The translations under genes and the position numbers were made by a program. This document shows positions 2,391-23,036 of a DNA stretch of 30,621 nucleotides, piece after piece. The notes beneath the pieces were generated by a model. That model saw only the letters and a list, made by a program, of their open reading frames with translations. It was not told the origin of the DNA and did no database searches. The stretch is from the NCBI GenBank assembly GCA_016840035.1, contig JAEOTC010000016.1, positions 1 to 30,621 on the forward strand. Reading direction: 5' to 3'. The DNA comes from Candidatus Hodarchaeota archaeon. Its GTDB lineage: Archaea > Asgardarchaeota > Heimdallarchaeia > Hodarchaeales > Hodarchaeaceae. Within the stretch, counting starts at the first letter, position 1. Each line of letters starts with the position of its first letter.

Positions 2391-2820
2391 ATACTTATCC
2401 CCATAAATATTTCAACAATTAATCATTAGAAACCTTTTACCGTATTTTATGAACAATATTGATTTATAGTTTATTATTGTGGCATAAAATGTCATTTAGA
2501 CGAATATCATTTTTTTGATAAGCAGAGAATTATTGAAGAATTAGAATGTGTAGAGTAAGGGAACCAAGTAATCATAATTATGAAAGGTCTTGGTTAAGCG
2601 AAATACATTGACCTGTTTACTGTTTCGTTTGGTGATTAAACATACGGATTTTAATTACCTTGTGTTTTATTGGGTTTGGTTAGAAAAACCCATTATGACT
2701 ATAATATCTAAGGGAATTATATACTTGGGCTTGAGTTTGGTAATTCTGATTTAAATTGTAAATAATTCTTGCAGTTGGTAAGAGTCAAATAATTATACTG
2801 GTACATGGGGACCATAATTG

Positions 2821-3930: not shown

Positions 3931-4075
3931 AATTCTCAATTAACGTAATTACCTTTTTTTCATTGAATACAGATCAAAGAGAAACAATTATTAGATGAAT
4001 TGCGAAAAATCGATAGATTACTTCTCACCAGAATGGATCTTAACTGAAACACTAATGGATAGGAGATTTGATTTT

Positions 4076-5443
4076 GTGATTGTTAATCCTAAAATTGTCT
4101 CTATTGGCTCCGGTAGTGCGAGTTTTTACTTATCCACACTAGGTGATATATTTACACAAGAATCCCTCAAGAACGCAGAGCTTTATTTGATTGATATTAA
4201 TAAGGAATTATTAACAAAAGTAACAGCCTTAGCTAACATTCTTAAAACTCGGTTAAAATCAAAAATCGAGATTACTTCTAGCACAGATCGGACTTTACTT
4301 TTGTCTAACGCTGATTTTGTGATCTTAACCCTTGCGGTCGATCGTGAACAAACATGGAAGGAAGATATCCAGATCGCCCAAAAATATGGGATCTGGCATT
4401 ATGGTGAGAATGGAGGTCCTGGAGCGTTTGGTCATACTGCTAGAAATGTGGCCACTCTTCTTCCGATCCTTCAAGATATCAACGATCTTGCACCCAATGC
4501 GACCATAATTAATTTCACTAATCCCCTCCCTAGAATCCATTTGGCAATCACTTCCCTAACTGGTCAGAGGTGTATAAGTTACTGCCACCAATATTTTCAT
4601 GGTTATTATTTACTTGGGAAAATTTTAATGGATGATTTACTACAACATGGTCATTCTTTTCCTAATCAAAATTACCATACAATTCGACAAGAATCCTTTA
4701 ATGAATATGATGTCAAAGCAGCGGGAATTAATCACTTTACTTGGATGCTGACAATTACTCGGATGGATTCTGGAGAAGATATCTATCCCATCCTTAAGGC
4801 CCATCTTCACAAAACCCCAAAAAACATAGAGAAATTTGAGAAGCTTTCCCGAAAGATGTTTGAAGTTTTTGGCTACTTTCCTGTCCCCGGGGAAACACAT
4901 CTTTCTGAATATCTTCCCTACACAAAAACGAAGGAAAATTGGAGAGACTACAATTTATTTCATTTTAATTTCGAAGAAGCGAAAAAAGATAGAGTACGAA
5001 ACCTTGGAATTTTGGATAATATTGTTACTGGGAAAGGATCCATTGAGAATTTGAATTTTGATGATGCTGAACGTCTTGCTGTTATTATTGGGAAATTATG
5101 TACAGATAAAGAATCTTCAGAACCCGCCTTGAATACCGAAAATAGAGGTACTATTAGTAATCTTCCAGAAGATTGTATTATCGAGGTTCCCTGTCAGCTA
5201 AGTAGCAACAACGTAACTCCTTACAAAATTGGTAAGCTTCCTGATTCCATTGCCGCATTATGTCACCGTGAGATAATAATTGCAAAACTTATGGTAGAAG
5301 GATCCATACAGGGCAGTCGTGACCTAATAGTTCAAGCTTTTGCTCTTGATCCAATGGTAGCAGATTTAAAACTAGCAGAACAATTAACCAATGACTACAT
5401 TTCTACTTTTCATGACTATCTCCCACAGTTTTATATACCATAA
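4076..5443 (+). CDS. NAD+/Mn2+-dependent glycoside hydrolase family 4 (alpha-galactosidase/alpha-glucosidase-like)
   Basis: Rossmann motif KIVSIGSGSASF, LIDIN, ADFVI, GENGGPGA, INFTNP, metal-ligand Cys in SYCH, GINHFTW, NLPEDCIIEVP, AFALDP. Start uncertain: the ORF opens at 3995, there is an ATG at 4055, and GTG 4076 follows SD-like AGGAGA at 4061-4066. Confidence 0.9.
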   Translation: MIVNPKIVSIGSGSASFYLSTLGDIFTQESLKNAELYLIDINKELLTKVTALANILKTRLKSKIEITSSTDRTLLLSNADFVILTLAVDREQTWKEDIQIAQKYGIWHYGENGGPGAFGHTARNVATLLPILQDINDLAPNATIINFTNPLPRIHLAITSLTGQRCISYCHQYFHGYYLLGKILMDDLLQHGHSFPNQNYHTIRQESFNEYDVKAAGINHFTWMLTITRMDSGEDIYPILKAHLHKTPKNIEKFEKLSRKMFEVFGYFPVPGETHLSEYLPYTKTKENWRDYNLFHFNFEEAKKDRVRNLGILDNIVTGKGSIENLNFDDAERLAVIIGKLCTDKESSEPALNTENRGTISNLPEDCIIEVPCQLSSNNVTPYKIGKLPDSIAALCHREIIIAKLMVEGSIQGSRDLIVQAFALDPMVADLKLAEQLTNDYISTFHDYLPQFYIP

Positions 5444-5543
5444 TTTCCAATAAGAAACATTTTGGCATATAGCTAGGTTTTTTAAGGACAAATAAGTGTT
5501 AATTCACTTAATTCAACATAATTTCTTAAGAAAGAAGGAGAAA

Positions 5544-7940: not shown

Positions 7941-7957
7941 AGTTTCACTTCACTAAA

Positions 7958-7992
7958 TCATACACAGGCAAACTGTGTATGACTCTATTTTT
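7958..7992. terminator. Perfect 10-bp hairpin between convergent genes, followed by a T-tract
   Basis: TCATACACAG (7958-7967), loop GCAAA, CTGTGTATGA (7973-7982), then CTCTATTTTT. Lies 17 nt after the stop at 7940 in a convergent intergenic gap. Confidence 0.55.
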
Positions 7993-8050
7993 CTAGGCTA
8001 TCCTTTCAATCTTGAACCAAGTATTCCTTATCCCTAGGAGAAGGAATAAT

Positions 8051-10390
8051 CTAATTTCTTCTATCTTTTTTTGAATATAGAGTAAATATAATTCCTAATA
8101 AGGTGACTATTGTCAATGGATAGTTTGTTGTTCGAGAAATATCAGTTGAAGTAATTGTTCCCGTAGGTACAAAAGATGAGGTGACTGATTGGGTAGTAGA
8201 GCCTCGGTTTACCCCAGAATTGGAAACCAATATGGTTTTATCTAACATTCCATAGGAGATCAACCCAGTTGCGCTTTGAGCTATCACACGCAAATGATAA
8301 GTTCCGTCAGCTAATTGATTGGTATTTAATTCAACACTTAGTTCCGAGGTCTTTAACTCAATAGGTTTCCAGAAAATTTGTTCTTTTGAATAATAAACCG
8401 AGTATGTTACTTCTGTATTATGGGAATCGACTGACTGTGACCAATGTATTGTCAAAGTTTCTGACACTTGAGAACCCTGAAAAATAGCTAGAAAAGGATT
8501 TGGAGTAGTCAGTATGTGGTTTATCGGAGTGGTCTGTGGGAATGGGTCAGAGTTATTATCGCCATCTATGAGATATGGTAGATCCACTATGCCGTCTTCA
8601 TTATCATCAGGGGTAGTAAAGTCCTTCCAATAATTATAACTAAAATTGTTATTATCAGAAGAAGTATCATAGGCCTGTGATGAAAGCCCCTCGTGGTTAT
8701 CTACAAAATTATTGTACAAAAACTGATTATTAGTTGACAAACTGCTAACAGATACTCCATATAGCCGAAATTTCTGGATTGTGTTGTAGATAAAGGTATT
8801 TTCTTGGGAATTATGAACCTCCATTCCGTAATCGCTGCTGGAAGACGAAGAATTATATGATTGGGCAATTAGAATATTATCTCCAATCAGAGAATTAATC
8901 GTGTCAACTAAGAAAATTCCTTGAGCACCATTGTTAATGAATCTATTCCCTGAAACAATAATATTTTCGGAGTTAACAATTACGATTCCTTGAGAACATC
9001 CTTTTATCGTATTATTCACTATATAACCATTTTTAACATTGTCTAGTATTATCCCCATTCCCCCAAAATTGATATTTATTCCATCGAAAATACTATTTCT
9101 TAAGATAAACCAGATGTCGGTGTTGGTAATACTAATGATCGTAGTGCGATTATTTCTAATGTGTAATTGTTCTATGATGTAGGGATTCTCTCGTGTCCCA
9201 TTTCCTGGGAACCAAAAGTTTTCAAAATCATTATTAGAGGAAATTTGGATGGGGGACAATTTCAATCGTTTATTGATAACATCGAAGGTAGGGAGATAGG
9301 AATCCTTATTACTATTTATTTCAAGAATATCTATGGTACCTTCATCTTGACATACGTAGATTCGAGAACCATTGATATGTACGTTGGTCGTATATTGAGT
9401 AGTATTAACTTTGAACGTTCTGACGGGTGAAGAGAGGTTACTGATATCGAGTACTTCTAAACCATCATTTCCATCTGCTAAATAAGCTACAGATCCATTC
9501 AGTGATAGAGCATTTGCTTCTCCCATACCCTCACGATATTTATTAATAAGGGATGGATTATAGGGATCACTAACATTGTAAAATTCCAATCCATCAACGG
9601 AATCTGCCACAAAGACGATATCCTCTTTTATTGCAATATTTTCTCCTCTCCCACCATCACTTATACTACTTATTTCCACTGGGTTCAAAGGATCCGAAAT
9701 ATCGATAATTTCGAACTCTCCCGATGTTTCAATTACGTAGGCATATGAATCGTTTACTACCACTCCTTTTGCATTCCCTCCATCATTCCAACGTCCCACT
9801 CCTTCAGGCCCGGAAATATCACTTACATTTATTACTTGTAATCCTCTAAAGTCATCAGCTAAGTATGCATATGAACCTTGTACAGCTACATCTTGAGGAT
9901 TGGTGTACGGTGGGTCTTCATTCAACCACAAGATTCCATACTTGAGCAAATTGGTGGGATCACTAATATCATAGATCTGTAATCCATCACCATGATGTGC
10001 TACGTATAATCGATTATCTACAATCTCTATCCCATTCCATTTTCCACCAGGCCAGTCGTGAAATACTTTTCGTGGTTTTGTAGGATCTGACACCTCTAAT
10101 ACCTTAATACTATCGTAAATATCTGCAACAATAAGGTGATTTCCATATGATGCTGTTTCTGAGATGCAATTCGAGCCTTCCACATAGCGACCAATAAGGG
10201 TAATATTATTTATATCAGTTACATTTACTATTTGATCTTTGATTACCATATTACTTGTAGTCTGTTTTAGTTCCTCTGTCCGCAAATTCGTATTGAATGA
10301 TGTCAAACTATCACTATGGAATAGTCCTAATCCATTAAAAACGAGTAAAGTCGTAAGTACAATCATATAGGGTCTAATATTGGGATTCAT
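8051..10390 (-). CDS. Surface protein: LVIVD-repeat beta-propeller + NosD-like beta-helix + FN3-like domain + C-terminal anchor
   Basis: About 7 LVIVD repeats (YVAHHGDGLQIYDISDP, YLADDFRGLQVINVSD, YLADGNDGLEVLDISN); FPGNGTRENPYIIE cap and beta-helix coils; NYWKDFTTPDDNEDGIVDLPY; FN3-like IHWSQSVDS...YSVYYS...DGTYHLRVIA; T/S linker + TM + KKDRRN. Confidence 0.88.
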   Translation of the reverse strand: MNPNIRPYMIVLTTLLVFNGLGLFHSDSLTSFNTNLRTEELKQTTSNMVIKDQIVNVTDINNITLIGRYVEGSNCISETASYGNHLIVADIYDSIKVLEVSDPTKPRKVFHDWPGGKWNGIEIVDNRLYVAHHGDGLQIYDISDPTNLLKYGILWLNEDPPYTNPQDVAVQGSYAYLADDFRGLQVINVSDISGPEGVGRWNDGGNAKGVVVNDSYAYVIETSGEFEIIDISDPLNPVEISSISDGGRGENIAIKEDIVFVADSVDGLEFYNVSDPYNPSLINKYREGMGEANALSLNGSVAYLADGNDGLEVLDISNLSSPVRTFKVNTTQYTTNVHINGSRIYVCQDEGTIDILEINSNKDSYLPTFDVINKRLKLSPIQISSNNDFENFWFPGNGTRENPYIIEQLHIRNNRTTIISITNTDIWFILRNSIFDGININFGGMGIILDNVKNGYIVNNTIKGCSQGIVIVNSENIIVSGNRFINNGAQGIFLVDTINSLIGDNILIAQSYNSSSSSSDYGMEVHNSQENTFIYNTIQKFRLYGVSVSSLSTNNQFLYNNFVDNHEGLSSQAYDTSSDNNNFSYNYWKDFTTPDDNEDGIVDLPYLIDGDNNSDPFPQTTPINHILTTPNPFLAIFQGSQVSETLTIHWSQSVDSHNTEVTYSVYYSKEQIFWKPIELKTSELSVELNTNQLADGTYHLRVIAQSATGLISYGMLDKTILVSNSGVNRGSTTQSVTSSFVPTGTITSTDISRTTNYPLTIVTLLGIIFTLYSKKDRRN

Positions 10391-10596
10391 CTTCTCTTTC
10401 CTTCATAAAAAATATCATTAAAATTAATTTCCGATATTGAGGGATGGAAACTAATAATGAATAGTTTCGTTCCTTTTCTGAGTTGCAACCTAAATATATT
10501 TTGTTAAATTATGTATTTTTTAACATCTCAATGAACAAGAAGTGCTGAATTTTATTTTTATTTTCGCAACAAAGAATACTAGATATTCAAAACCCC

Positions 10597-11928
10597 CTAA
10601 ACACGGGTTCCTGTCACAATCCAAGAGACATAAGAACAATCGAAACACATACCAGAATAAGAAGCGATAAAGGTTGCCTGCCAAGTATCTTCATCAATGA
10701 ATGTCCCAATCAAGCTGTATATCTCATCACACCCGCCGAAGTAAACAAATGTCACATCTATGACTCCATTTGAGGCAGTAGATCCCGTCATGTAACCTCC
10801 CCCATTTATCATTGGCTGTACTGTCAGTGTGGTCCCCGTGTCGACAAATGTGAACGAAGTATAGTAAAGATTCACAATGCCATATGCACAGTAATAATTT
10901 ATAATCGGACTGAGACTATAGGTTCCTGAAGCATTCACTTGAATAATCAGGGAATCATTTCCTGAGTTACCATACTCAATTCCATCAAAAGGAGTGACTA
11001 CACATTTCCATTCCTCCCCGACTCCTGTTCGATTTGATAGAATCGTTGCCCCTGTCTCATTTGTTAAATCGCCATTTTGAAACCACTCATAGATATATGC
11101 AATGCTATCATTATCCGCATCAATACTGGGTGTTATAACAATACATGTTAGATTATCATGAGTGTATGCAAAATCGGGCACGATAGTAACTTCTGGTCTG
11201 GTAGGAAGAGAATTCTCAGGGAGAGGGATTCCATCATCTTGGATGAGAATTAACGCATTCCCAGAGGACCCATAATCTGTTCCATCAAAGGGTGTCACCA
11301 CACATTTCCATTCCTCACCACTCTTTGTATGAATTGCGGATAAATTTCTTCCTGTAAACCCTGTTACACTTTTATTCTTAAACCATTCATAATGATACGA
11401 GATACTATCATTTTCTAGGTCAAAGCTTGGTACTAGGATGGTACATGTGATTGTATCATTACTATAGGCAGGATCAGGGGTAAGAGAAACTTCAGGTGCT
11501 GTTGGAGGAGTATTCACAAGCCCTTGAAATCGCTCCTGAATTACTGTTGTATCTGATCCTGGGTCACCATAATCTTGTCCATCAAAGGGAGTGACAAAGC
11601 ACTGCCAAATATCACCAATAGATGTTTCTGTGGCAGATACTGTTTCTAGTTCGATATTTGTTACACTCCCGTTTCGCACCCACTTATAGCTGTAAGTGAT
11701 ACTATCATTATCTATGTCAGTACTTGGTAGTAAGATGCTACATCTTAACCTGTCTTCATTATAGGAGGGAGAGGGACTGATAATTATTATTGGATCTGTC
11801 GGAGGAGTATTCCTACCATTTTGTTCGGAAAATTTAAAGATATTGGAAAAAATCATGTATGCACTAAATAAAGTTATTATTAAAAACACAGCACCGATTA
11901 CACTTAGAGATTTTCTATCTAGAGACAA
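10597..11928 (-). CDS. N-terminally anchored protein with three ~100-aa Cys/Trp Ig-like repeats and a Cys-containing beta-rich C-terminal domain
   Basis: N-terminal TM; repeats start at nt 11811, 11514 and 11214 (N-T/S-x-P-T-x-P...C-x19-W-x26-C-x-VTPFDG-x-x-YG); the terminal ~110-aa domain has 4 Cys. TTG start. Confidence 0.8.
   Translation of the reverse strand: MSLDRKSLSVIGAVFLIITLFSAYMIFSNIFKFSEQNGRNTPPTDPIIIISPSPSYNEDRLRCSILLPSTDIDNDSITYSYKWVRNGSVTNIELETVSATETSIGDIWQCFVTPFDGQDYGDPGSDTTVIQERFQGLVNTPPTAPEVSLTPDPAYSNDTITCTILVPSFDLENDSISYHYEWFKNKSVTGFTGRNLSAIHTKSGEEWKCVVTPFDGTDYGSSGNALILIQDDGIPLPENSLPTRPEVTIVPDFAYTHDNLTCIVITPSIDADNDSIAYIYEWFQNGDLTNETGATILSNRTGVGEEWKCVVTPFDGIEYGNSGNDSLIIQVNASGTYSLSPIINYYCAYGIVNLYYTSFTFVDTGTTLTVQPMINGGGYMTGSTASNGVIDVTFVYFGGCDEIYSLIGTFIDEDTWQATFIASYSGMCFDCSYVSWIVTGTRV
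10939..11811 (-). repeat. Three tandem ~300-bp coding repeats (Ig-like domains)
   Basis: Periods of 297 and 300 nt; shared WxCxVTPFDG motif, visible at DNA level as the ccatcaaa(a/g)gg(a/t)gt core on the + strand. Confidence 0.85.
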
Positions 11929-12464
11929 GGAAATTCCCTATTCTTTTTATTTTCTATTATTCTCTGGAAATATCCATTTTTCAATTCAGATAGTACTAAT
12001 TCTTTCTGTTCTACGTTTATAAGATTATCTTTCCTGTCCCAGATATAGCTTCCATCTATTCAGTAGACTAATTCCTCCAAAATACCCTAATTTTAGGTAG
12101 AATTAAATAAGAATAGTCCAATTGACGGTGTAAAGGATGAGTAATGTAATGAATTCGTTGGGAATCCTTTACTTCCCTTCTCATCCTTTTTTTTCTCATC
12201 GAATTACTGAACCAATCTAGTGATTTGTTTTTTACATAAATTCGGAGTTTTTCTCTAGATAGCAATATAAGTAGGTTATCAATATTCTAGTTACCGATAA
12301 TGCAATTTCTAGAATCTTAGAGTGATTTTATGGAATTGTAGGGAATTGCTGTCCTTCAACAGTATGTGAGAGATCAACAATTCCGACAAAGTCGATCAAT
12401 TGTATGTACGGGCTCAATTTATTGAATACAGCATCCATCGGTGTTTAAAAACTGGTTGATGATA

Positions 12465-15400
12465 ATGAAAGCCCTAATTCTATCCTCATTTCTTGTTTTA
12501 TTGTTTATTCCTGGACTAACAATACTTCATATTCCTTTAAACGAAAGCACTCAAGATGTTGCTACTCCTCTTGTTGAGCTGAACAGTATACGAAAGGTAG
12601 ACGTGTCGTTAGTAGGAAACGTATATCTATCTCAACCTGGTATCGTGAATGGAGAAATGGTTGAAATTTACGGAAAGATTCGTAATAATGGTGGTTTTCA
12701 AGTTACTTCTTATGTTCTCTTTACTGTGAAAAATTCGAGTTGGAAGCAGGATATTGCCAGTCAAAAAATTACTCTTACTCCAAATGAAGAGCAATATGTT
12801 AAAACGTCATGGATGGGAGTTGAAGGAACATATGAAATAAGTATTCAGGCAAAAGTGATAAATTATAGAGATAGTGTACCTGAGAATAATATAATCACAA
12901 CTGTCTTTAAAGTTGCTCCAGAACAATCTACCAGTATGTTTCTAAGAGACAATAGTGATACGAATGATCATTCTATGCAAGAAATGAATGAAGATATTGT
13001 AGATATCTCAATAATGGAGAAAAATAATTATTATTCTATTTATGAAATTAAACCCGGGGATTCACAAGTATTAGATTTAACTATTATTTCACATGACATT
13101 ACAGATGAATTCCGAGTAATTGTAGGAGGGATTACTAATGGAATTAGGGTGGACCCCGATCAGTGGATCTTACCATTATTTAAGGGAGAAGAAGTAGACC
13201 TTCAAGTAAAGATATCTGTTAGTCAGGACCTTAACGTTGGAAGCTCTCATACTGTAGAATTACTTTTATATCGATCCTCACATCCATCAGATATTGTTCA
13301 GAAATCTTTTGATTTCCTGATTGTATCAGATTATACACAAGATTCAGAAAGTAATACTGAAGATCAGAGCTCCTCCTCGGTTGATAACTCTCAAAACTCC
13401 CCAATAAATGCAAGTATACATTTCTCAATTCTCTCGATTTCTGAAGTTAATCCTCCTATTATTGGTAATATAACCCATGATCCTACATATCCAAGTATCT
13501 TTCAAAATGTTACCATTATTGCAGATATCATTGATGAGAGTACCCTACTGAACGCGACTCTATTTTATTCATTTAATGAGGGGTCGACTTGGTTAAATAC
13601 TTCAATGTTACCAGGTGCACTGAACAGTTGGTCTGGGGAAATAATCACACCAGGATATGAAGAAAACGTTACATATTTTGTCCAAGCTTTTGATAATTTT
13701 ACCAATTCTGCATCATCCTCACAGTATTCTTTCTTATTTGATAATTCACCCCCAGTCATAGGAGAGGTGCAAATCGATGATAATACCCCTAACTATCAAC
13801 AAAATGTGACGATTTCTACTCAGATTAATGATCAGAGCCCTTTAAGGAATGTAACCCTATACTATTCATTTGATAATGGCACCACTTTTATCCCGATTAA
13901 TATGACGGGTAGTGCAGGAACAAGAACCTATGTGAAGGATGTGCTATTGGTGGTCTCAACAAGTGGTCAATATACAGATTATCTATCCCGCAATCTATTC
14001 ACTTGGGATTCGATAACTGCCTCCACATTTTCTTCTATTACAATTTCCACCCTTAGTCAATATAGGATTTTAATCTTAGAACCAAACTGGGTTTCTTACA
14101 CTTATCTTCGAAATGGTCTTCTCACAGTCAACCAAGCCCTTGATGATTTCTCACTTGTAGTTTCCATTCGAGTTGCTGGGAATCAAGGATCCCAAGCTGA
14201 TATAGACTTTCTTGGAACCGATTACGACAGAAGTATCACTCATATTGTTGAAACAATTGTTGATAGCAATCACCCATTTATTTCTGGAGCTCCTTGGAGC
14301 GGAAGTCCAATAATTGCTTCATATTTCAATTCTTGGAGTAGTACAGATCATGGATGGCTTTATAATCTTCCCGCTTCTCAAGAAGGTTATACAGAGATAC
14401 TTCAAAACGCCAATGGAATATCCATGTTTGAATACTCATATAAAGGATCCCATATCCTTCTTGACACATTAACATCCATAGATGGAGGTTGGGGAAGTGG
14501 AAACGACTTTGTGGCTGATAACTACATCAATTATCTCAATTACACCTATTACCAGTTAACACCAGGTTATCAGGCGACTATTCCAATTGCACCTGTAAAT
14601 ACTCTCGTCCAATATTACATAAATGCTATAGATATGGTTAATAATTCTGCTATCTCTGAAACTAATTCCTATTTCTCTGATGGTTCTATTCCCCAAATAA
14701 GCAATGTAACCGAAACAACAGTTGTATCTGAACTTGATTCTCTTACGATTAATGCCACAATTAGTGATAATTGGGCTTTAGATAATACTACAGCCATTCT
14801 TGTCTACACGTATGATAATACTACATTCTATCAAACTTCGATGACATTGATATCTGGTAATGAGACGTATGCTATATTTCAAGCAGTCTCACCTGTTACT
14901 ACCCAGTCAATTGTTTTCTATTCCATACAAGTCATAGATCTCTCTGGTCTACAAGGGTCTTCTGGTAACTTTTCCTACCTCGTAGATCATATGCCCGTCT
15001 TGAATTCTCAGTTGACGATTCCTACTTACCCTCAAGCCAATCAATCAGTTACTATTAACGCTACAGTTAGTGATGATTATGGAATCGCATCGGTTATCCT
15101 GCATTATAATAGTAATTCTACTTGGGACCAGATTAGTATGAATTTGAATCAGGGAATATATCAGGCGACCATTCCTGCAACAATTAACGATACAAATGTC
15201 GACTATTTCATTTCTATAACTGATACATTTGGTCATCAAATAAATTCGTCAAATTTTAATTATCACTCTGACGGACTAGCTCCAAGCTTTACCAGTATAA
15301 CTCACACACCGATACAGCCAAATGCTGATGCTCCTGTTCTTGTCCAAGCTATTATCACAGATTCAAGTGGTATTCAAAATGCTTCCCTGTCCTATTCTAC

Positions 15401-18400
15401 TGACGCTGGTTCTTCATGGACGAATCTCTCCATGGGCTTCAACCTAGGGTCTTGGGAAGCATCTATCCCCGCACTCAACCAATCTATTCAAGTAAATTAC
15501 TTTGTAACTGCTTATGATCAAGCAGATATTATGGGTGAATCAAATCAAACAATTTTTGATACCGATGCCGATTCTCCCCAAATATATAACCTTACAGAGA
15601 TCGGAGTCGTTTCAGAATTATCCAATATCCCCATCAATGTGACCTTAACTGATAATTTTGGTGTAGATTCAAGTAATGTCCTTTTATTGTATTCTTATGA
15701 TAATAGTAGCTGGTTCTCAACAGCCATGAGCCTAATTATGGGTGATACACTTAATGGTACATATAATGGTAATTCTCCCTCTACTAGTCAGAACATGGTA
15801 TATTATTATGTACAAGTCTTTGATTTAAGTGGTCGTTCCAATATCTCCTCAATTTTGACTTATACAATTGACCACCAACCTGTTGTGATTCTCGATCATA
15901 TTGAACCTCTTTATCCCTCTCCTCTTACTGATGTTAATGTTTATGCAAATATTACCGAAGATGTTGGACTTAATCAAGTAGTTCTCTATTACAATTATAA
16001 TACTACTTGGCAACAAACTCCAATGGCTAATGTCAGTAATCAATTTACTGGAACTATCGGATTTACAAATATGGATACTCAAGTCTCCTATTATGTCTCT
16101 GTTATTGATTCCTTTGGTCATATGGTCAATTCTTCAACTCAATTGTTTTATGTAGATGGATTACCACCCACAGTTGAAAATATCAGCTACGTCCCCACAT
16201 TTCCAACCTATACTGAAAACGTTACCGTAAAGGTAGATCTAGTTGATAATCAAAATGTTTACAACAGTACCTTATATTATACAACCAATGGTACTTGGAT
16301 TGGAGTAAACGTCTCTATCCCCCAAGCCAATACCGTAACAGGAAGAGATCCCACATCAGGGGAGTATTACGGCATTACTCAGACGATGGATTACGATTCT
16401 GGAGACCTCAAGCGTCTTTCTATTTATGTATATTCTTCTGATTCTGACACTTTGTATGTGACCCTTTGGGGATTCCGAATGGATACTGAAGTTTGGGAGC
16501 AATTCCATTATTCTGGATCTCGTGGTACAGGAAACTTACCTGAATTTAACTGGGCAACTCCAATATATGACCAATGGCGTATCCAGATCTATGATTCCGA
16601 AAGTAACGATTATTTTTACTATTCATATGAATACGATTATCAACCAGGGTATTCTACCACAATTCCTGCAACGAATTCTAGTTCAACTGTCCAGTTCTAT
16701 ATAGAAGCATTTGATTATGCTGGAAATAAAGGAAATTCCTCTCTTTTCAGCTACTTTACTGATGCTGATGCCCCAAGTTGGTCAAATATTACCATTGTAT
16801 CTACTGTTTCTGAACTAACCAATGTTCCTATAAATATCACCATTGGTGATAACGTAGCTGTGAATACCAGCCTAGTGATAATGTATTACTCGTATAATCA
16901 ATTAACCTGGTTTAGTACTCTAATGACGCTTACTTTGGGATCAAATATCACGGGTACTTACACTGGCAATATTCCTGCAACAAGTAATTTCGTCGTTTAC
17001 TATTATATTAATGCTTCAGATATAAGCGGGTTAACAAACCAAACTTTAACATTTAACTACACCATAGATCATGTACCCATTCTCAATGAAGTTAGGATCG
17101 ATCCTCTCTACCCTAATCCTTCTTCATCTCCGACGATTTATATGAACATTACCGATGATTCTAGCCTCAGTTCTGTGAAGTTGTCCTACGAATATATTGG
17201 TTCGTCAGGAACACTTAATATGACTGAAAACAGTGGATTATATGAAGCTTCCATCCCTGCTACGGGAATTGATAGTTTGGTGAATCTCACATTTATTATT
17301 GTCGATAGTTTCGGACATAATCTCACAAATAGTGATTTTTCATATTTCTCTGACGGGCTTTCCCCTATATTCCGAACGGTCCAAACTATTCCTGCATATC
17401 CCAACTATCTACAAAATGTAACAGTAGTGGCTGCATTTGATGATGTCAACGGTATGAGGAATGTTACATTATACTACCGAATGAATTCTGGTATTTGGAA
17501 CTCTCTTATTATGAATGGTACCGTCGGAATTGATGCGGGGAATCCTGCAACAGATGTCTTACTTATCTCTCATGGACAGGATACCTCATATTTAACCCGA
17601 AATGGATATACTTTTGATTCAATAACAGAATTTCAATTCTCGACCATTACAACTGTTACGCTATCTCAGTATAGAATTCTCATTCTTGAACCCGATTGGT
17701 CAAATTACGCTTACTTAAGAAGTGGACTTGTTGTGGTTGATCAAGCTCTTGATAATTCATTATTGGTGGTATCCATCCGAGTTGGAGGTAATGCTGGTTC
17801 TCAAACGGATATCGATTTTCTAGGAACCGATTATTCTCAAACAGCTTTCTCAAATGTGGAAACGATTTTAGAATCGAATCATCCTTTCATAACTGGTTCT
17901 CCCTGGGGAGGAAATACATTGTTGGACTCTGATTTTAATTCTTGGGGTTATACCGATCATGGTTGGTTATACAATCTTCCTATTTCCCAACAAGGATACA
18001 CTGAAATCCTTCAAAATGCCAACGGTATCTCCATGTTTGAGTATAGTTACAAAAACTCACACATTTTGGTAGATTCTCTGACTTCTATTGATGGAGGTTG
18101 GGGTACTGGAAATGACCCTGTTGCTGACAACTACATTAACTATCTCTATTACCTCTATTCAATATTTATTCCTAGCCATTCTGCCACAATTCCAGTTGCT
18201 CCTGCAGATACAATAGTCGAATACTATATAGAAGCAACTGACCTAGCAAATAATTCTGCAATGTCAGGACTTTATACCTATCTTGTTGATGGAGGTGCTC
18301 CTCAAATAAATGATGTTACTCAAGTTATGGACACTTCCCAACTTGATTCTGCCGTGATTAATGCAACGGTAACAGATGGATTAGGTGTTGATAACAGTAG

Positions 18401-21400
18401 TGTTCTTCTTATTTATACGTATAACAATTTGACTTATTATCAATCTCCAATGGCCTTTATCTCAGGAAATGAAACCTTTGGAATTTATCAAGGTGTGTCT
18501 CCTGCTACCAGTCAATCAAAGGTCTATTATTATATTTCCGCTAGAGATATCAGTGAGCTTCGCTCCTATTCAGGAAATTTCTCATATCGCATTGATTTCC
18601 TTCCCGTAATTCAGAACATTTCTTTGACGCCCACTTATCCTAGTGGCTTTAACAATATGTATGTATTGCTGGAAGTAACTGATGATATTGGAATTGCCAA
18701 TGCAACGCTGTATTATACCTATAATTCCACTTGGGTCAGTATCCCCCTTACACAACAAGGAAGTGATTTTGAAGCAATTATTCCCCCGTTGAATGTTGAT
18801 GCGTTTTTAACATATTATATTGTCGTTTTTGACACCTTTGGTCATCAGATTACCTCTTCACAAGATCAACGGTATATAGATGGATTAATTCCAGCCATTA
18901 CTGATATTGATAGGTCTCCTGTATACCCCATAAACAATACATCTGTTATGGTTTCGTGCATTATTAAGGATAATAACACCCTTGTAAATAAAACCCTTAT
19001 CTATTCCGTTAATGGTTCCAGCTGGATTTCGCTTGATATGAATCAATCTGTACTAGTAACCATAAATGGAAGGAACCCTCCTACAGGTAATTTTGCATCA
19101 GGAACAACCCAAATAATCGATCATGATGTTGGTGGGCCGATCGAACGATTATTATTATATGTCTATTCAGCTGACAGTGATACAATATCGGTCACTCTTT
19201 GGGGTATGAGAATTGATTCTAGCACTTGGGAACAATTCTACACTAGCAGTTCACTCTCTAATGGATATATTCCAGAATTTAACTGGCCAACTCCCATATA
19301 TAACCAATGGAGGATCCAGATGTATGATACTGAGGGTAATGACTACTTCTATTACTCGTATGAGTATGATGCATTATTAGACTTTGGAGCACAAATTCCT
19401 GGATTTGGTCAAGATACGAATATTACATATTACATTCAATCATTTGATATAGCAGGAAACTTTGCAGAAAGTAATTATTATTCCTATGTTATCGATGGTA
19501 CCAGTCCTACCATTCAGAATGTTACTGAAGTCAATATAGCTCCTGCTATTGATCCAATCGACATTGAAGTAGTTTTTTCAGACAGAGGAGGAATCAATGA
19601 GTCCCTCGCTCTTCTTTACTACTCATTTGATAATTCTTCTTGGTTCAATACACAAATGGTAAAGCAATCAGGAACCATTCAAAATGGGAGTTATTCGGGT
19701 ACAATTCCAGCTTCTGTTTCGGAAACGACCGTGTATTATTACATTTATGTAGAAGATCTAAGTGGACTAAATGTTACATCATCTATATTGACATATCTTA
19801 CTCTCGATGTCACCATAAATTTACAATCTCCAGCTGAATATTCAGTCCTGAATGGAACTATATTAGTTGATTTTGAGTTTTTGATTACTCCAAATACCAG
19901 TCTTGTAGAACTTAGTTTTGATCAAGGTGGTAGCTGGATTAACATGACCAATACTAGTGGTGATTTGTTTATACACACGTTAAATACTTCTGCTAAATCT
20001 GAAGGATTATTGGATGTATGGTTAAATGTAACTGTAATTCCAAGTGTGAGCCTTATTAGAACGTATACGTATTACATTGACCGATCTATCCCCCAAATTA
20101 TCAGTCTTACCAATTCCACAAGAATTAGTGGTTCAGGGGATATAATCTATAGTACAATTTCTGATGCAGTTATCAATGCTAATATGTCTGTAACCCTCTT
20201 TTATACCTATGACAATTCCACATGGTATCAAACTCCGATGGTACTCCAGAATCAGTCAACAAACCTTGGTACTTACTCTGGTACATTACCTGCAGCATCT
20301 GGAGAGCTCGCATTATCTTATTATGTTACTGTTACAGATGAGCTCGGTTGGACTAATCAATCTTCTACAATAAATACCCTGATTGACTACGAACCTGTAA
20401 TTTCGAGTATTAATCTTTCTTATGATTATGTTCGGTCAGATATCCCGGTAACTGTCTATGTCTTCGCAAGTGACGACTATGGGATCTTCAATGTATCATT
20501 ATACTATAATTATGACGATACAAACTACTCAACTGTATTGACATTTCAAAATGGAGCGTATCAAGGAATTATCCCAAGCACATTAATCGATGTTAATGTG
20601 ACATATTCTGTAGGGGTGTTTGATACTTTTCTTCAATACACTGAAAGTGTCACTTATCAATATTATTCTGACGGAATTGATCCCAATATCAGTTATATAG
20701 TTCAATCTCCCTCAAATTCCAACCTACTCGACGTTGTAACCATATACAGCAATATTGATGATAAAAATCCTTACCGAAATGTGTCGCTCTTCTATACCTT
20801 TGACGGATCTACTTGGACCAGTGTTGATTTCATTTCTGCCGGGATTCACACCATCACTGGTCGTAATCCCATATCAGGGACATATTATAATGAAACAATC
20901 ACCACAGATTATGCAAGTGGGCCTCTCTCTCGTCTATCAGTGTATACCTATTCCAGTGATGCAGATACAATCGCTGTGACACTCTGGGGATTCCGAAGTG
21001 ATACTGGTACTTGGGAGCAGTTTTATTCCTCTTCGATATTAGGAACTGGGTATATCCCTGAATTTAATTGGGCAAATATTGTATATGAGCAATGGCGGAT
21101 TGAGATTCACGATACTGAGAATGACGATAGTTTCCATTATTCTTTCGAATTTGATATTGAACCCGATTACTTCGCCGAAATTCCAGCCTCCTCCTTGGAT
21201 GGTGATGTCGATTATTACATTTTTGTTTCAGATATGTCGAATCGTACTTCTCTCAGTAGTGTCCTCTCATATTACACTGATGGTGTGTATCCTACTGTCA
21301 GTGGAGTAACAGATTTCGATCCTGTTTCACAATTTGTATCCCCAAGGGTTTATGCTGATATTTCAGATAATATTGGACTCCTTACTCCCAGATTATTCTA

Positions 21401-23036
21401 CTCAACAGATGAAATTACCTGGTTTAGTCAAGTACTGACATTAGAAAGTGGAAATATGATTGCAGGTAGGTTTTATGCCGATATTCCTGCCATCTCAAGT
21501 GGAGTAGTGGCTTATTATATCGAAGTAAGTGATTTGAATAGATTAATTTCGAGTTCTATTGTTCGATATTATGTAATTGACACCCAACCTGAAATTCTAT
21601 TTATTACCCACTTTCCTGCCGAGATTCCTCTCAATACACGAGTAACTGTAACTGCATTCATTACGGATGATTATGGAATTAGTATTGTTAGACTATATTA
21701 CTGGATAAATGGATTTTTCCATAGTAAAACAATGAGCTTGGTGAATGGAGCATTTCAGTCATCTATCGATCCAATCAGCACAAATGCTAATGTAGAATAT
21801 ATTGTCAATGCTATTGACACGATTGGACAGTCTAGAAATTCAACAAGTACGACATTTATGATAGATGGTTTAGCTCCTACAATAACATTTATTCAGGTTC
21901 CAGTTGGAAACAGTATCCCTCATCCAGCTGAAGTGCCAATAGAGGTACATGTAGAAGACAATGTTCAATTAAATATGTCTGGAACGACATTATATATTTC
22001 CTATGATAGAAATACCTGGATTGAAATGCCAATGCAACTCTCTGGTGGAACTACATTCAGTGCTACCTTTATTAAGATAATTCCTGAAATCCCCACAAAT
22101 ATCATCTATTTCTATGTAGTCAGTTATGATGATGTAGGTCTTATGAGTTCTACTTCAATAATGCATTATAATATTGAGATCTTTCCCGATGCTGACGAAG
22201 ATGGCGTCGCAGATTGGACTGAAATCAATGTGTATAATTCTGATCCAAATAACAATGATACTGATGGGGATGGACTCTTAGATTTCAATGAAATTTATGT
22301 TTATTCTACCAATGCCACTGATAGTGACACGGATAACGATGGAATGCCTGATGGATGGGAAGTTCGCAACAGTCTTAATCCACGGGCCAATGATGCCAAT
22401 CTTGATGCTGATGAGGATGGATTACTGAACATTGAGGAATATAATGCTTCAACTAATCCACAAAAGCCAGATACCGATGATGATGGCATGCCTGATGAGT
22501 GGGAAATTCTAAACGATCTCAATCCAACTCTTAACGACAGTTACTCAGACGCGGATAATGATGAGCTGATCAATTTAGACGAATTCTTTGAAGAAACTGA
22601 TCCTCAGAATGCCGATTCTGATGCTGATTTGATCCCTGATGGTTGGGAAGTCTTCAACTCTCTTAATCCATTGAGCAATGATTCCGCTTTAGATCCAGAT
22701 GTAGATGAGTTATCTAACTATGAAGAATTTACACATGGAACTGATCCCCAAGATGAGGACACCGATAATGATGGAATGCCCGATGGTTGGGAAGTTAGAA
22801 ACAGTTTGAACCCCCTTGTCAATGATGCAGAACTTGATGCTGATGAGGATGGTTATTCTAATCTTCGGGAATATGAACTTGATTCAGACCCAAATGATCC
22901 GAATGATCCTGCTTCAAGTTCGAATGCAATTTTAATTGGTTTATTGGTTCTGTCTTCAATACCTGTAGCATTTGTTGGAATAAGAAAGAGAGATACTATC
23001 CGAAATCTTATTCAAAAATATAGAAATCGAGATTAA
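12465..23036 (+). CDS. Giant (~3520 aa) membrane-anchored adhesin/surface-layer-like glycoprotein: CARDB-like N-terminus, ~22 Ig-like domains with five inserted domains, Ca-binding DxDxDG repeats, TM and short basic tail
   Basis: Uninterrupted 10.6-kb ORF (opens at GTG 12441; ATG 12465 gives MKALILSSFLVLLFIPG signal peptide). Repeated P-x-I...VTIxAxIxD...LYYS...W...M...YxAxIP...VxYYIxAxD units; 10 DxDxD motifs; TM AILIGLLVLSSIPVAFVGI then RKRD...; very many N-x-S/T sequons. Confidence 0.9.
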   Translation: MKALILSSFLVLLFIPGLTILHIPLNESTQDVATPLVELNSIRKVDVSLVGNVYLSQPGIVNGEMVEIYGKIRNNGGFQVTSYVLFTVKNSSWKQDIASQKITLTPNEEQYVKTSWMGVEGTYEISIQAKVINYRDSVPENNIITTVFKVAPEQSTSMFLRDNSDTNDHSMQEMNEDIVDISIMEKNNYYSIYEIKPGDSQVLDLTIISHDITDEFRVIVGGITNGIRVDPDQWILPLFKGEEVDLQVKISVSQDLNVGSSHTVELLLYRSSHPSDIVQKSFDFLIVSDYTQDSESNTEDQSSSSVDNSQNSPINASIHFSILSISEVNPPIIGNITHDPTYPSIFQNVTIIADIIDESTLLNATLFYSFNEGSTWLNTSMLPGALNSWSGEIITPGYEENVTYFVQAFDNFTNSASSSQYSFLFDNSPPVIGEVQIDDNTPNYQQNVTISTQINDQSPLRNVTLYYSFDNGTTFIPINMTGSAGTRTYVKDVLLVVSTSGQYTDYLSRNLFTWDSITASTFSSITISTLSQYRILILEPNWVSYTYLRNGLLTVNQALDDFSLVVSIRVAGNQGSQADIDFLGTDYDRSITHIVETIVDSNHPFISGAPWSGSPIIASYFNSWSSTDHGWLYNLPASQEGYTEILQNANGISMFEYSYKGSHILLDTLTSIDGGWGSGNDFVADNYINYLNYTYYQLTPGYQATIPIAPVNTLVQYYINAIDMVNNSAISETNSYFSDGSIPQISNVTETTVVSELDSLTINATISDNWALDNTTAILVYTYDNTTFYQTSMTLISGNETYAIFQAVSPVTTQSIVFYSIQVIDLSGLQGSSGNFSYLVDHMPVLNSQLTIPTYPQANQSVTINATVSDDYGIASVILHYNSNSTWDQISMNLNQGIYQATIPATINDTNVDYFISITDTFGHQINSSNFNYHSDGLAPSFTSITHTPIQPNADAPVLVQAIITDSSGIQNASLSYSTDAGSSWTNLSMGFNLGSWEASIPALNQSIQVNYFVTAYDQADIMGESNQTIFDTDADSPQIYNLTEIGVVSELSNIPINVTLTDNFGVDSSNVLLLYSYDNSSWFSTAMSLIMGDTLNGTYNGNSPSTSQNMVYYYVQVFDLSGRSNISSILTYTIDHQPVVILDHIEPLYPSPLTDVNVYANITEDVGLNQVVLYYNYNTTWQQTPMANVSNQFTGTIGFTNMDTQVSYYVSVIDSFGHMVNSSTQLFYVDGLPPTVENISYVPTFPTYTENVTVKVDLVDNQNVYNSTLYYTTNGTWIGVNVSIPQANTVTGRDPTSGEYYGITQTMDYDSGDLKRLSIYVYSSDSDTLYVTLWGFRMDTEVWEQFHYSGSRGTGNLPEFNWATPIYDQWRIQIYDSESNDYFYYSYEYDYQPGYSTTIPATNSSSTVQFYIEAFDYAGNKGNSSLFSYFTDADAPSWSNITIVSTVSELTNVPINITIGDNVAVNTSLVIMYYSYNQLTWFSTLMTLTLGSNITGTYTGNIPATSNFVVYYYINASDISGLTNQTLTFNYTIDHVPILNEVRIDPLYPNPSSSPTIYMNITDDSSLSSVKLSYEYIGSSGTLNMTENSGLYEASIPATGIDSLVNLTFIIVDSFGHNLTNSDFSYFSDGLSPIFRTVQTIPAYPNYLQNVTVVAAFDDVNGMRNVTLYYRMNSGIWNSLIMNGTVGIDAGNPATDVLLISHGQDTSYLTRNGYTFDSITEFQFSTITTVTLSQYRILILEPDWSNYAYLRSGLVVVDQALDNSLLVVSIRVGGNAGSQTDIDFLGTDYSQTAFSNVETILESNHPFITGSPWGGNTLLDSDFNSWGYTDHGWLYNLPISQQGYTEILQNANGISMFEYSYKNSHILVDSLTSIDGGWGTGNDPVADNYINYLYYLYSIFIPSHSATIPVAPADTIVEYYIEATDLANNSAMSGLYTYLVDGGAPQINDVTQVMDTSQLDSAVINATVTDGLGVDNSSVLLIYTYNNLTYYQSPMAFISGNETFGIYQGVSPATSQSKVYYYISARDISELRSYSGNFSYRIDFLPVIQNISLTPTYPSGFNNMYVLLEVTDDIGIANATLYYTYNSTWVSIPLTQQGSDFEAIIPPLNVDAFLTYYIVVFDTFGHQITSSQDQRYIDGLIPAITDIDRSPVYPINNTSVMVSCIIKDNNTLVNKTLIYSVNGSSWISLDMNQSVLVTINGRNPPTGNFASGTTQIIDHDVGGPIERLLLYVYSADSDTISVTLWGMRIDSSTWEQFYTSSSLSNGYIPEFNWPTPIYNQWRIQMYDTEGNDYFYYSYEYDALLDFGAQIPGFGQDTNITYYIQSFDIAGNFAESNYYSYVIDGTSPTIQNVTEVNIAPAIDPIDIEVVFSDRGGINESLALLYYSFDNSSWFNTQMVKQSGTIQNGSYSGTIPASVSETTVYYYIYVEDLSGLNVTSSILTYLTLDVTINLQSPAEYSVLNGTILVDFEFLITPNTSLVELSFDQGGSWINMTNTSGDLFIHTLNTSAKSEGLLDVWLNVTVIPSVSLIRTYTYYIDRSIPQIISLTNSTRISGSGDIIYSTISDAVINANMSVTLFYTYDNSTWYQTPMVLQNQSTNLGTYSGTLPAASGELALSYYVTVTDELGWTNQSSTINTLIDYEPVISSINLSYDYVRSDIPVTVYVFASDDYGIFNVSLYYNYDDTNYSTVLTFQNGAYQGIIPSTLIDVNVTYSVGVFDTFLQYTESVTYQYYSDGIDPNISYIVQSPSNSNLLDVVTIYSNIDDKNPYRNVSLFYTFDGSTWTSVDFISAGIHTITGRNPISGTYYNETITTDYASGPLSRLSVYTYSSDADTIAVTLWGFRSDTGTWEQFYSSSILGTGYIPEFNWANIVYEQWRIEIHDTENDDSFHYSFEFDIEPDYFAEIPASSLDGDVDYYIFVSDMSNRTSLSSVLSYYTDGVYPTVSGVTDFDPVSQFVSPRVYADISDNIGLLTPRLFYSTDEITWFSQVLTLESGNMIAGRFYADIPAISSGVVAYYIEVSDLNRLISSSIVRYYVIDTQPEILFITHFPAEIPLNTRVTVTAFITDDYGISIVRLYYWINGFFHSKTMSLVNGAFQSSIDPISTNANVEYIVNAIDTIGQSRNSTSTTFMIDGLAPTITFIQVPVGNSIPHPAEVPIEVHVEDNVQLNMSGTTLYISYDRNTWIEMPMQLSGGTTFSATFIKIIPEIPTNIIYFYVVSYDDVGLMSSTSIMHYNIEIFPDADEDGVADWTEINVYNSDPNNNDTDGDGLLDFNEIYVYSTNATDSDTDNDGMPDGWEVRNSLNPRANDANLDADEDGLLNIEEYNASTNPQKPDTDDDGMPDEWEILNDLNPTLNDSYSDADNDELINLDEFFEETDPQNADSDADLIPDGWEVFNSLNPLSNDSALDPDVDELSNYEEFTHGTDPQDEDTDNDGMPDGWEVRNSLNPLVNDAELDADEDGYSNLREYELDSDPNDPNDPASSSNAILIGLLVLSSIPVAFVGIRKRDTIRNLIQKYRNRD
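13452..22187 (+). repeat. Array of ~22 diverged ~95-105-aa Ig-like domains in a three-domain super-repeat
   Basis: Domain starts read from the protein: NPPII, DNSPP, DGSIP, DHMP, DGLAP, DADSP, DHQP, DGLPP, DADAP, DHVP, DGLSP, DGGAP, DFLP, DGLIP, DGTSP, (atypical LDVTI), DRSIP, DYEP, DGIDP, DGVYP, DTQP, DGLAP. Confidence 0.8.
22188..22910 (+). repeat. Thrombospondin type-3-like (prokaryotic) calcium-binding repeat stalk
   Basis: Ten DxDxD(G) motifs: DADEDG, DTDGDG, DTDNDG, DADEDG, DTDDDG, DADNDE, DSDADL, DPDVDE, DTDNDG, DADEDG. Recurring MPDGWE..N.LNP / L.N..EY...TDP alternation. Confidence 0.88.

What the first reader, a model, noticed from the sequence alone, without database searches (positions are those of the whole stretch)
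13905..21167. Giant surface protein with a 'plug-in slot': interchangeable cargo domains inserted in the same loop of every third Ig-like domain
Seen: the Ig-like units normally read ...W-x-x-x-x-M-(4-12 aa loop)-Y/F-x-A/G-x-IP.... In five units this loop is replaced by a whole domain, after which the host resumes with YxAxIP...VxYYIxAxD. Cargo A (221 aa both times) is at 13905-14567 and 17514-18176. Cargo B (112/114/112 aa) is at 16314-16649, 19041-19382 and 20832-21167. A sixth equivalent host (15270-15563) has an empty 6-aa loop (GFNLGS, 15435-15452). Slot order: A, empty, B, A, B, B. Inference: a bottle-brush or branched architecture in which a ~22-domain rod displays functional modules sideways at regular intervals instead of only at its tip. 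The slot behaves as a cassette position that can be filled, emptied or swapped by recombination between super-repeats. I know of no described archaeal adhesin built this way; this is the best candidate for a new system in the window.
Basis: partly seen in the sequence, partly recalled or inferred. Interest (0 to 1): 0.85.

Follow-up and report, generated by a model that had tools for sequence, protein, structure and literature searches.

The report
Archaeal surface fibre with split domains
A 3,531-residue membrane-anchored surface protein of an Asgard (Hodarchaeales) archaeon is a rod of 22 fibronectin-III-like domains, five of which are interrupted at the same loop by a whole extra domain; bacteria use this design in RTX adhesins, but it has not been described for archaea.

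Summary

- **Cargo A:** a Cys-less class-I glutamine-amidotransferase-like (ThuA/STM3548/GIFT-type) domain. In other Asgard surface proteins it sits in-line.
- **Sequons:** N-glycosylation sequons crowd the scaffold (4.5 per 100 aa) and avoid the cargo (0.5 per 100 aa).

New here: a second family of about 1,000 aa, in 7 of 22 genomes of the genus, uses the same loop of the same Ig family. It carries two further cargos (C1, and a P-domain-like C2), again spaced host-plain-plain.

The "cassette" idea is only weakly supported. Slot order is identical in all orthologues seen, and synonymous sites are saturated. One gain or loss is implied by empty D5 being sister to B-bearing D14.

The design matches the "split domains" of bacterial RTX adhesins, but it splits at a different loop and uses a different anchor and different cargo. 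I class it as a new variant of a known kind. Ligand-binding function is inferred, not shown.

The parts
12441..23036 (+). Whole gene, 3531 aa from GTG 12441 (the record's protein starts at ATG 12465, 3523 aa): N-terminal signal/TM, tip region, 22-unit rod, TSP3 stalk, C-terminal TM anchor
   Evidence: orthologue of 3534 aa in G004
12558..13445 (+). Distal tip region (aa 40-335), CARDB-like beta domains by eye; poor in sequons; most variable part between orthologues (79.5% identity)
   Evidence: no Pfam hit
13446..22175 (+). Rod of 22 FN3/Ig-like units (aa 336-3245) in X-Y-Z triads; 95 N-x-S/T sequons in 2130 scaffold residues
13740..13904 (+). Host D2, N-half (strands A, B, C, C')
13905..14567 (+). 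Cargo A1 (aa 489-709): class-I GATase-like alpha/beta domain, no nucleophile Cys
14568..14678 (+). Host D2, C-half (strands E, F, G)
15270..15563 (+). Host-type unit D5 with an empty slot (loop GFNLGS at 15435-15452); sister of B-bearing D14 in the unit tree
16155..16760 (+). Split host D8 (N-half 16155-16313, C-half 16650-16760) with cargo B1 at 16314-16649
17352..18287 (+). Split host D11 (N-half 17352-17513, C-half 18177-18287) with cargo A2 at 17514-18176
18879..19493 (+). Split host D14 (N-half 18879-19040, C-half 19383-19493) with cargo B2 at 19041-19382
20670..21278 (+). Split host D19 (N-half 20670-20831, C-half 21168-21278) with cargo B3 at 20832-21167
19806..20078 (+). D16 (aa 2456-2546), a degenerate or odd Ig-like unit that breaks the triad register
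22176..22910 (+). Membrane-proximal stalk of bacterial-type thrombospondin type 3 (Ca-binding) repeats
   Evidence: Pfam PF18884 E 5e-10, 39.5 bits against cutoff 25
22926..23033 (+). C-terminal hydrophobic helix (aa 3496-3514) and basic tail: membrane anchor
   Evidence: read from the translation; same ending in fragment P0100

Best explanation
The gene encodes a long, C-terminally membrane-anchored, probably heavily N-glycosylated surface fibre of a Hodarchaeales (Asgard) archaeon. Its shaft is a chain of FN3-like domains arranged in triads.

In five triads the third domain is a 'split domain'. After strand C' the chain leaves the sandwich, folds into a complete cargo domain, and returns to lay down strands E, F and G. 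In FN3 topology the C'-E loop lies at the N-terminal pole of the domain, next to the junction with the preceding unit. The cargo must therefore sit off the rod axis, on the side facing away from the cell (inferred).

There are two cargo types:
- A is a non-catalytic GATase1-like (ThuA/STM3548/GIFT-type) domain.
- B is an aromatic-rich GOLD-like beta-sandwich.

Both are sequon-poor, while the shaft is sequon-rich. This fits bare functional surfaces on a glycan-shielded rod.

The most likely function is multivalent binding of polymeric or cell-surface ligands, such as glycans, particles or partner cells. The knobs would be displayed roughly every three domains. This works like the split-domain ligand-binding regions of bacterial RTX adhesins but arose separately.

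Shown: the colinear split, the common loop, the reassembled fold in models, the cargo folds, and reuse of the slot by other cargos in a second protein family.

Inferred: lateral geometry, glycosylation, and ligand binding.
For: - **One insertion column:**
- **Host+B model:** AF2 pLDDT 85. Host strands run 6-13, 23-30, 35-43, 49-52, then cargo, then 166-170, 178-187, 192-201.
- **Cargo A is autonomous:** 94 relatives, in-line in other Asgard surface proteins with PKD, cadherin or NosD domains.
- **Sequons:** 95 in 2130 scaffold residues against 4 in 780 cargo residues.
- **Second family:** the layout is host+C1, Ig, Ig, host+C2, Ig, Ig, with the same column, in 7 of 22 genomes.
- **Topology:** N-terminal signal/TM, TSP3 stalk and C-terminal TM.
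Against:
- The structures are AlphaFold2 models.
- pTM of the host+B model is only 0.56, so the relative orientation is uncertain.
- Neither cargo belongs to a family with a demonstrated ligand. GATase1-like domains can also mediate oligomerisation, as in GH42 enzymes.
- Between orthologues the cargo is not better conserved than the scaffold (86.5% against 88.2%). Cargo-specific constraint shows only between paralogous copies.
Confidence: 0.68

Rival explanations
1. Active cassette system. The slot is filled, emptied or swapped by ongoing recombination between super-repeats, which would generate strain-to-strain variation in cargo order.
For: - Empty D5 and B-bearing D14 are sisters (SH-aLRT 90). 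They lie in a colinear segmental duplication, D2-D6 to D11-D15, so at least one gain or loss occurred.
- P0003 differs by an extra X-Y pair before host+A.
- Four cargo families use the same loop across two protein families.
Against: - Slot order is identical in G004 (87% identity, 7 gap positions) and in all colinear fragments P0096-P0100.
- The order C1, C2 is constant in 7 species.
- Codon identity at identical residues is 39-53% for cargo pairs and 39-57% for whole plain domains. This indicates saturation and no recent conversion tracts.
- The repeats are only 44-66% identical in DNA.
Confidence: 0.1
2. Lattice or canopy builder. The lateral domains bind each other or neighbouring fibres, cross-linking fibres into a surface mesh rather than binding foreign ligands.
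For: - GATase1-like middle domains mediate oligomerisation in GH42 enzymes, and these are among the fold matches.
- p24 GOLD domains form homo- and hetero-oligomers (title of a reference cited in PMC10936438).
- Regular spacing of the knobs suits a lattice.
Against: - No test of self-association was run.
- The protein is present in only 2 of 22 genomes of the genus, which is unlike a core envelope component.
- In relatives, cargo A sits at the tip of unrelated surface proteins.
Confidence: 0.13
3. Enzyme display. Cargo A, and perhaps B, is catalytic, and the fibre is a scaffold for extracellular enzymes acting on glycans or peptides.
For: - The GATase1-like fold is shared with many hydrolases and with glycan-enzyme accessory domains.
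- Invariant or near-invariant His, Asp and Trp residues occur in the HP.I.G and W..TDHG motifs.
- The neighbourhood holds GH4, GH20, NosD-like and M1 peptidase genes.
Against: - There is no nucleophile Cys at the elbow position in the family consensus.
- There is no Pfam enzyme family match.
- The neighbours are not conserved next to the G004 orthologue, within the short flanks examined.
Confidence: 0.07
4. Plain beads on a string. The 'cargo' domains are simply in-line modules between truncated Ig remnants.
For: None beyond the linear order of the sequence.
Against: - The N- and C-halves are colinear with the two parts of every uninterrupted unit.
- HMMER reads the B hosts as one domain with an insertion.
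- The models rebuild one FN3 sandwich from both halves.
Confidence: 0.02

Closest known systems
Split Ig-like domains of Gram-negative RTX adhesins (MpIBP, V. cholerae FrhA, A. hydrophila AhLap)
   Same: An Ig-like sandwich that is discontinuous in sequence carries a whole domain budding from it. The split domain projects that domain away from the fibre axis. In AhLap two extender domains separate two split domains (PMC12077191; PMC10865825). The period here is likewise host-plain-plain.
   Different: - The RTX split comes after the first beta-strand (12 aa, then the cargo). Here it comes after the fourth strand (about 55 + 38 aa).
- RTX adhesins use a T1SS signal, an RTX beta-roll and an N-terminal retention domain. 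Here there is a signal peptide, a TSP3 stalk and a C-terminal TM anchor.
- RTX split domains cluster at the distal tip. Here they run along the whole rod.
- The cargos differ: GATase1-like and GOLD-like here, against CBM, PA14, peptide-binding or vWFA domains.
- The host organism is an Asgard archaeon.
Nested domain insertions in Gram-positive pilus tip adhesins (e.g. RrgA: vWA domain inserted in a CnaB-type domain; from my own knowledge, not checked here)
   Same: A binding domain is inserted in a loop of an Ig-like stalk domain of a surface adhesin.
   Different: The pilus adhesins have a single insertion at the tip of a covalently polymerised pilus with isopeptide bonds. They are not a periodic series in one polypeptide.
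Class-I glutamine amidotransferase-like fold: ThuA-like, STM3548, GH42 middle domain, GIFT domain of IFT52/OST48
   Different: Cargo A has no catalytic Cys and no Pfam family. It is extracellular and inserted in an FN3 loop.
GOLD domain of p24/TMED cargo receptors
   Different: Sequence identity is 7-8% and no profile match was found. Small beta-sandwiches match easily, so homology is not shown.
Titin-type Ig/FN3 super-repeats
   Same: A long rod built from a repeating pattern of distinguishable domain types. Here the types X, Y and Z are separated in the tree.
   Different: Titin is intracellular and has no domain-in-domain insertions.

Membership tests
Split Ig-like domain with projected domain (architecture as in RTX adhesins) | An Ig-like sandwich, discontinuous in sequence, whose two parts form one fold | tested here: met
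Split Ig-like domain with projected domain (architecture as in RTX adhesins) | The inserted domain has adjacent N and C termini and points away from the fibre axis | not testable with these tools
   Model coordinates are not returned. The feature is inferred from FN3 topology, in which the C'-E loop lies at the N-terminal pole.
RTX adhesin (protein family) | RTX nonapeptide beta-roll, C-terminal T1SS signal and N-terminal retention domain | tested here: not met
   Pfam finds only TSP3_bac repeats. The C-terminus is a TM helix plus basic tail, and the N-terminus is a signal/TM.
RTX adhesin (protein family) | [quoted passage not shown] | tested here: not met
   Four strands (6-13, 23-30, 35-43, 49-52) precede the cargo and three follow it. 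In RTX adhesins the split follows a single 12-aa strand (PMC10865825).
Fibronectin type III / E-set Ig-like fold (host units) | Seven-stranded sandwich superposable on FN3 domains | tested here: met
Class-I glutamine amidotransferase (enzyme) | Cys-His-Glu triad with Cys at the nucleophile elbow | tested here: not met
   The 62-sequence family consensus has no Cys; the elbow reads AGN.G.Q. Only the fold is shared.
GOLD domain (PF01105-type) | Sequence-profile membership | tested here: inconclusive
Proprotein convertase P-domain (cargo C2 of the sister family) | Match to PF01483 | tested here: inconclusive
   Two of 6 members match, best E 1.4e-4. The G011 member itself does not match.
Bacterial TSP3 repeat | Match to PF18884 above the gathering score | tested here: met
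   39.5 bits against cutoff 25, E 5e-10.

The most novel reading that the evidence does not exclude
The C'-E loop of one Hodarchaeales FN3-like family may be a true, evolvable display platform that arose independently of bacterial split domains. It would accept unrelated autonomous domains. At least four sequence families are seen so far: GATase1-like A, GOLD-like B, C1 and P-domain-like C2. It would space them host-plain-plain along surface fibres from 6 to 22 domains long. This would give Asgard archaea a modular toolkit of multivalent surface receptors. Cargo B would then be a real GOLD-domain relative exposed on the cell surface.
Probability: 0.3. Interest if true: 0.7.

Novelty: new variant of a known kind. 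Interest (0 to 1): 0.55.

Why it matters
Asgard archaea are the closest known relatives of eukaryotes and live in tight partnerships. How their cells touch partners and substrates is almost unknown. This protein and its smaller sister family give concrete, testable candidates for multivalent surface receptors.

They also show that the "split domain" solution for presenting binding modules sideways from a fibre evolved in archaea as well as in bacteria, at a different loop of the fold.

In practical terms, split hosts are a marker for finding functional modules in giant repetitive proteins. The loop is also a natural example of a permissive grafting site in an FN3 scaffold.

Tried and rejected
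- **Pfam:** scans of the whole protein and of each cargo gave nothing for A or B. Scanning 62 A-family members gave only one weak DUF4159 hit.
- **Cargo B outside this protein family:**
  - Present in 2 of 83 genomes of the class.
  - Two searches of the 5.8-billion-protein set returned only colinear fragments of the same protein.
  - The profile search against PDB sequences gave nothing meaningful.
  - Atlas feature search gave only sub-threshold viral hypotheticals, 0.89 or lower. The first atlas call failed on length.
- **Foldseek on host+B:** only weak jelly-roll or CBM hits. The VIA-align searches were needed.
- **Cargo family links:** profile-profile comparison of B with C1, B with C2, and C1 with C2 showed no relationship, probability below 1%.
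- **Other split hosts in the window's own genome:** a search with the unit profile found none. The assembly is 87% complete.
- **Synteny with G004:** none of four window neighbours was found in the 1.8 and 3.6 kb flanks held.
- **Self-BLAST:** BLAST of the whole protein against itself returned only the trivial hit, so it was redone in chunks.
- **P0002:** at first it looked like an independent 85% relative. It is the window's own protein and is not counted as evidence.
- **Literature:** no paper held both 'split Ig-like domain' and archaea. Searches on Hodarchaeales adhesins and on Asgard giant surface proteins gave nothing relevant.
Full report
**1. What is there**

The finding lies inside one ORF, 12441-23036 on the + strand, 3531 aa. 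The record's own protein starts at the ATG at 12465 and is 3523 aa.

The protein is laid out as follows:
- a hydrophobic N-terminal signal/TM segment;
- a tip region of about 300 aa;
- 22 Ig-like units, aa 336-3245;
- a stalk of bacterial-type TSP3 repeats (PF18884, E 5e-10);
- a C-terminal hydrophobic helix with a basic tail.

Colinear fragments 79-84% identical to it are named Candidatus Hodarchaeales archaeon. The host is therefore an Asgard archaeon.

**2.

- A phmmer search seeded with the empty unit matched its first 54-60 positions before each cargo and positions 61-93 after it.
- MAFFT of the 22 units, with cargo left in, placed all five insertions in one block of 211 columns. The block lies between the W..M strand and the Y.A.IP strand. 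A 48-unit alignment with orthologues agreed.
- A HMMER profile run over the genome read the B hosts as single domains, model 1-102 over 606-615 nt. It read the A hosts as two halves.
- The every-third rule holds from D2 to D14. An extra X plus a degenerate unit (D15-D16) then shifts the last host to D19.

**3. Do the halves make one fold?**

Two AlphaFold2 models were built on custom alignments.

*Host+B (aa 1239-1440).* Mean pLDDT is 85. Four strands come before the cargo and three after it.
- The host halves sum to about 91 residues, so these matches use both halves.
- The ESM-Atlas search agreed, with 97-98 residues at rmsd 1.3-1.8.

The insertion is in the C'-E loop. By FN3 topology (established knowledge) this loop lies at the N-terminal pole with the BC and FG loops. 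The cargo should therefore sit beside the junction with the preceding unit and face away from the membrane. I could not measure this, because coordinates are not returned.

**4. The cargos**

*Cargo A.* It is confidently folded, pLDDT above 93. It has the class-I glutamine-amidotransferase-like fold:

|---|---|
| STM3548 | 15.4 |
| ThuA-like | 14.8 |
| IFT52 GIFT domain | 13.6 |
| OST48 | 12.4 |
| GH42 middle domains | also matched |

- The 62-sequence family alignment has no Cys. Its conserved motifs are HP.I.G and W..TDHG, so it is not an amidotransferase.
- It has no Pfam family.
- It has 94 relatives among 1.84 billion representatives. The closest are in Kariarchaeaceae, Heimdallarchaeota and Lokiarchaeia.
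- In those relatives it sits in-line, often right after the signal peptide. The proteins also carry PKD, cadherin, NosD or laminin-G domains, or it stands alone with a PEP-CTERM tail.
- A is therefore an autonomous extracellular module. Only in this protein family is it inserted into an Ig unit.

*Cargo B.* It is an all-beta domain with 41 of 112 positions invariant among copies, many of them Trp, Tyr or Phe.
- By sequence it exists only in this protein and its orthologues.
- Identity is 7-8% and there is no profile match, so I treat this as a fold resemblance only.
- GOLD domains have already been noted in other archaea (PMC10936438).

**5. Sequons**

| Region | N-x-S/T sites | Residues | Per 100 aa |
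|---|---|---|---|
| Ig scaffold | 95 | 2130 | 4.5 |
| Five cargo domains | 4 | 780 | 0.5 |
| Expected from composition | | | 1.6 |

The pattern fits a glycan-coated shaft with bare functional knobs. Glycosylation itself is inferred.

**6. Evolution and the cassette idea**

*Evidence for stability:*
- The G004 orthologue is 87% identical with 7 gap positions and the same slot order.
- Fragments P0096-P0100 are colinear with the same occupancy.
- P0003 (51-59% identity) differs only by an extra X-Y pair before host+A.
- Within the protein, A1/A2 are 67% identical and their host halves 39-51%. The B copies are 53-57% identical and their hosts 30-36%.
- Identical residues use the same codon in 39-53% of cases for cargo pairs and 39-57% for whole plain domains. 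Synonymous sites are therefore equally saturated, and there is no recent conversion.
- Between orthologues, cargo and scaffold are equally conserved, 86.5% against 88.2%. The distal part (tip, D1, D2, A1) is the most variable at 76-83%.

*Evidence for change:*
- A colinear segmental duplication, D2-D6 to D11-D15, pairs empty D5 with B-bearing D14. These two are sisters in the unit tree (SH-aLRT 90, flagged as long branches).
- At least one ancient gain or loss of B therefore happened. An active swapping mechanism is not supported.

**7. The slot is reused elsewhere (new)**

- The unit profile found partial matches in other genomes of the genus.
- A protein of about 1,000 aa in 7 of 22 genomes (G008, G009, G011, G012, G015, G016, G018) has a signal peptide and a C-terminal TM anchor. 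Its layout is host+C1, Ig, Ig, host+C2, Ig, Ig.
- Both insertions lie at the same alignment column as A and B.
- C1 (about 136 aa) and C2 (about 134 aa) have no profile link to B or to each other.
- Two of six C2 members match the proprotein-convertase P-domain (E 1.4e-4).
- Four sequence families thus occupy one loop of one Ig family, again with host-plain-plain spacing.
- If the six loops were equally likely, three further families choosing the same loop would have a chance of about 0.005. This is a rough figure and the events may not be independent.

**8. Comparison with what is known**

Split Ig-like domains that project ligand-binding domains away from the fibre axis are established for RTX adhesins of Gram-negative bacteria. 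In AhLap two extender domains separate two split domains (PMC12077191; PMC10865825). The present protein works like these but is not a member of that family:
- it has no RTX roll or T1SS signal;
- the split comes after the fourth strand rather than the first;
- the anchor is different;
- the hosts are spread along the whole rod;
- the cargos are different.

I found no paper describing such a design in archaea. That library is limited.

**9. Verdict**

The architectural reading is supported. The cassette mechanism is largely unsupported, and the novelty claim needs trimming. This is a new variant of a known kind, made more interesting by its Asgard host, its periodicity, and the recurrent slot shared by four cargo families. 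Function (multivalent ligand binding) is inferred.

Noticed in passing
L023:130-3117 (G011:C12); also L024, L027-L030, L032, L033, L035, L036: A surface protein family of about 1,000 aa occurs in 7 of 22 genomes of the genus. It has two split hosts of the same Ig family carrying two other cargos. C1 is about 136 aa. C2 is about 134 aa, and 2 of 6 C2 members hit Pfam P_proprotein. It was not found in the window's genome or in G004.
   Followed up: partly
window 13446-22175 versus cargo segments: N-x-S/T sequons are nine-fold denser in the Ig scaffold (95 in 2130 aa) than in the cargo domains (4 in 780 aa). The tip region is also poor in them (3 in 335 aa).
   Followed up: yes
window 12465-14678 (tip, D1, D2, A1): The membrane-distal end is the least conserved part between the window and G004: 76-83% identity against 84-97% for the rest of the rod. 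This would fit faster evolution of the exposed tip.
   Followed up: partly
window 459-11928 and 28761-30383: The neighbourhood is rich in secreted or glycan-related genes: M1 peptidase, two NosD/beta-helix proteins (one with LVIVD repeats), GH4, a CARDB/DUF11/TRAP-beta-like protein, and GH20 hexosaminidase. The immediate neighbours were not found beside the G004 orthologue in the short flanks held.
   Followed up: partly
G012:C15:115682-116554 and G008:C31:79580-79879: Units of the same Ig family occur in even larger open frames of sister genomes, 12,627 aa and 4,447 aa. These were not examined for split hosts.
   Followed up: no
G016:C1:301297-301647 (-): A C1-like domain (38% identity) lies in a different ORF of 526 aa, so cargo C1 also occurs in more than one protein.
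   Followed up: no
L003 (G010:C1:618339-618692): A distant cargo-A-like stretch (28% identity, E 5.5e-5) lies in a 409-aa frame with one internal TAA. It may be a decayed or separate A-domain gene.
   Followed up: no
window 19806-20078 (D16): A 91-aa unit fits none of the X, Y or Z types and sits on a very long branch (3.17). It is 96% conserved in G004. It breaks the triad register.
   Followed up: partly
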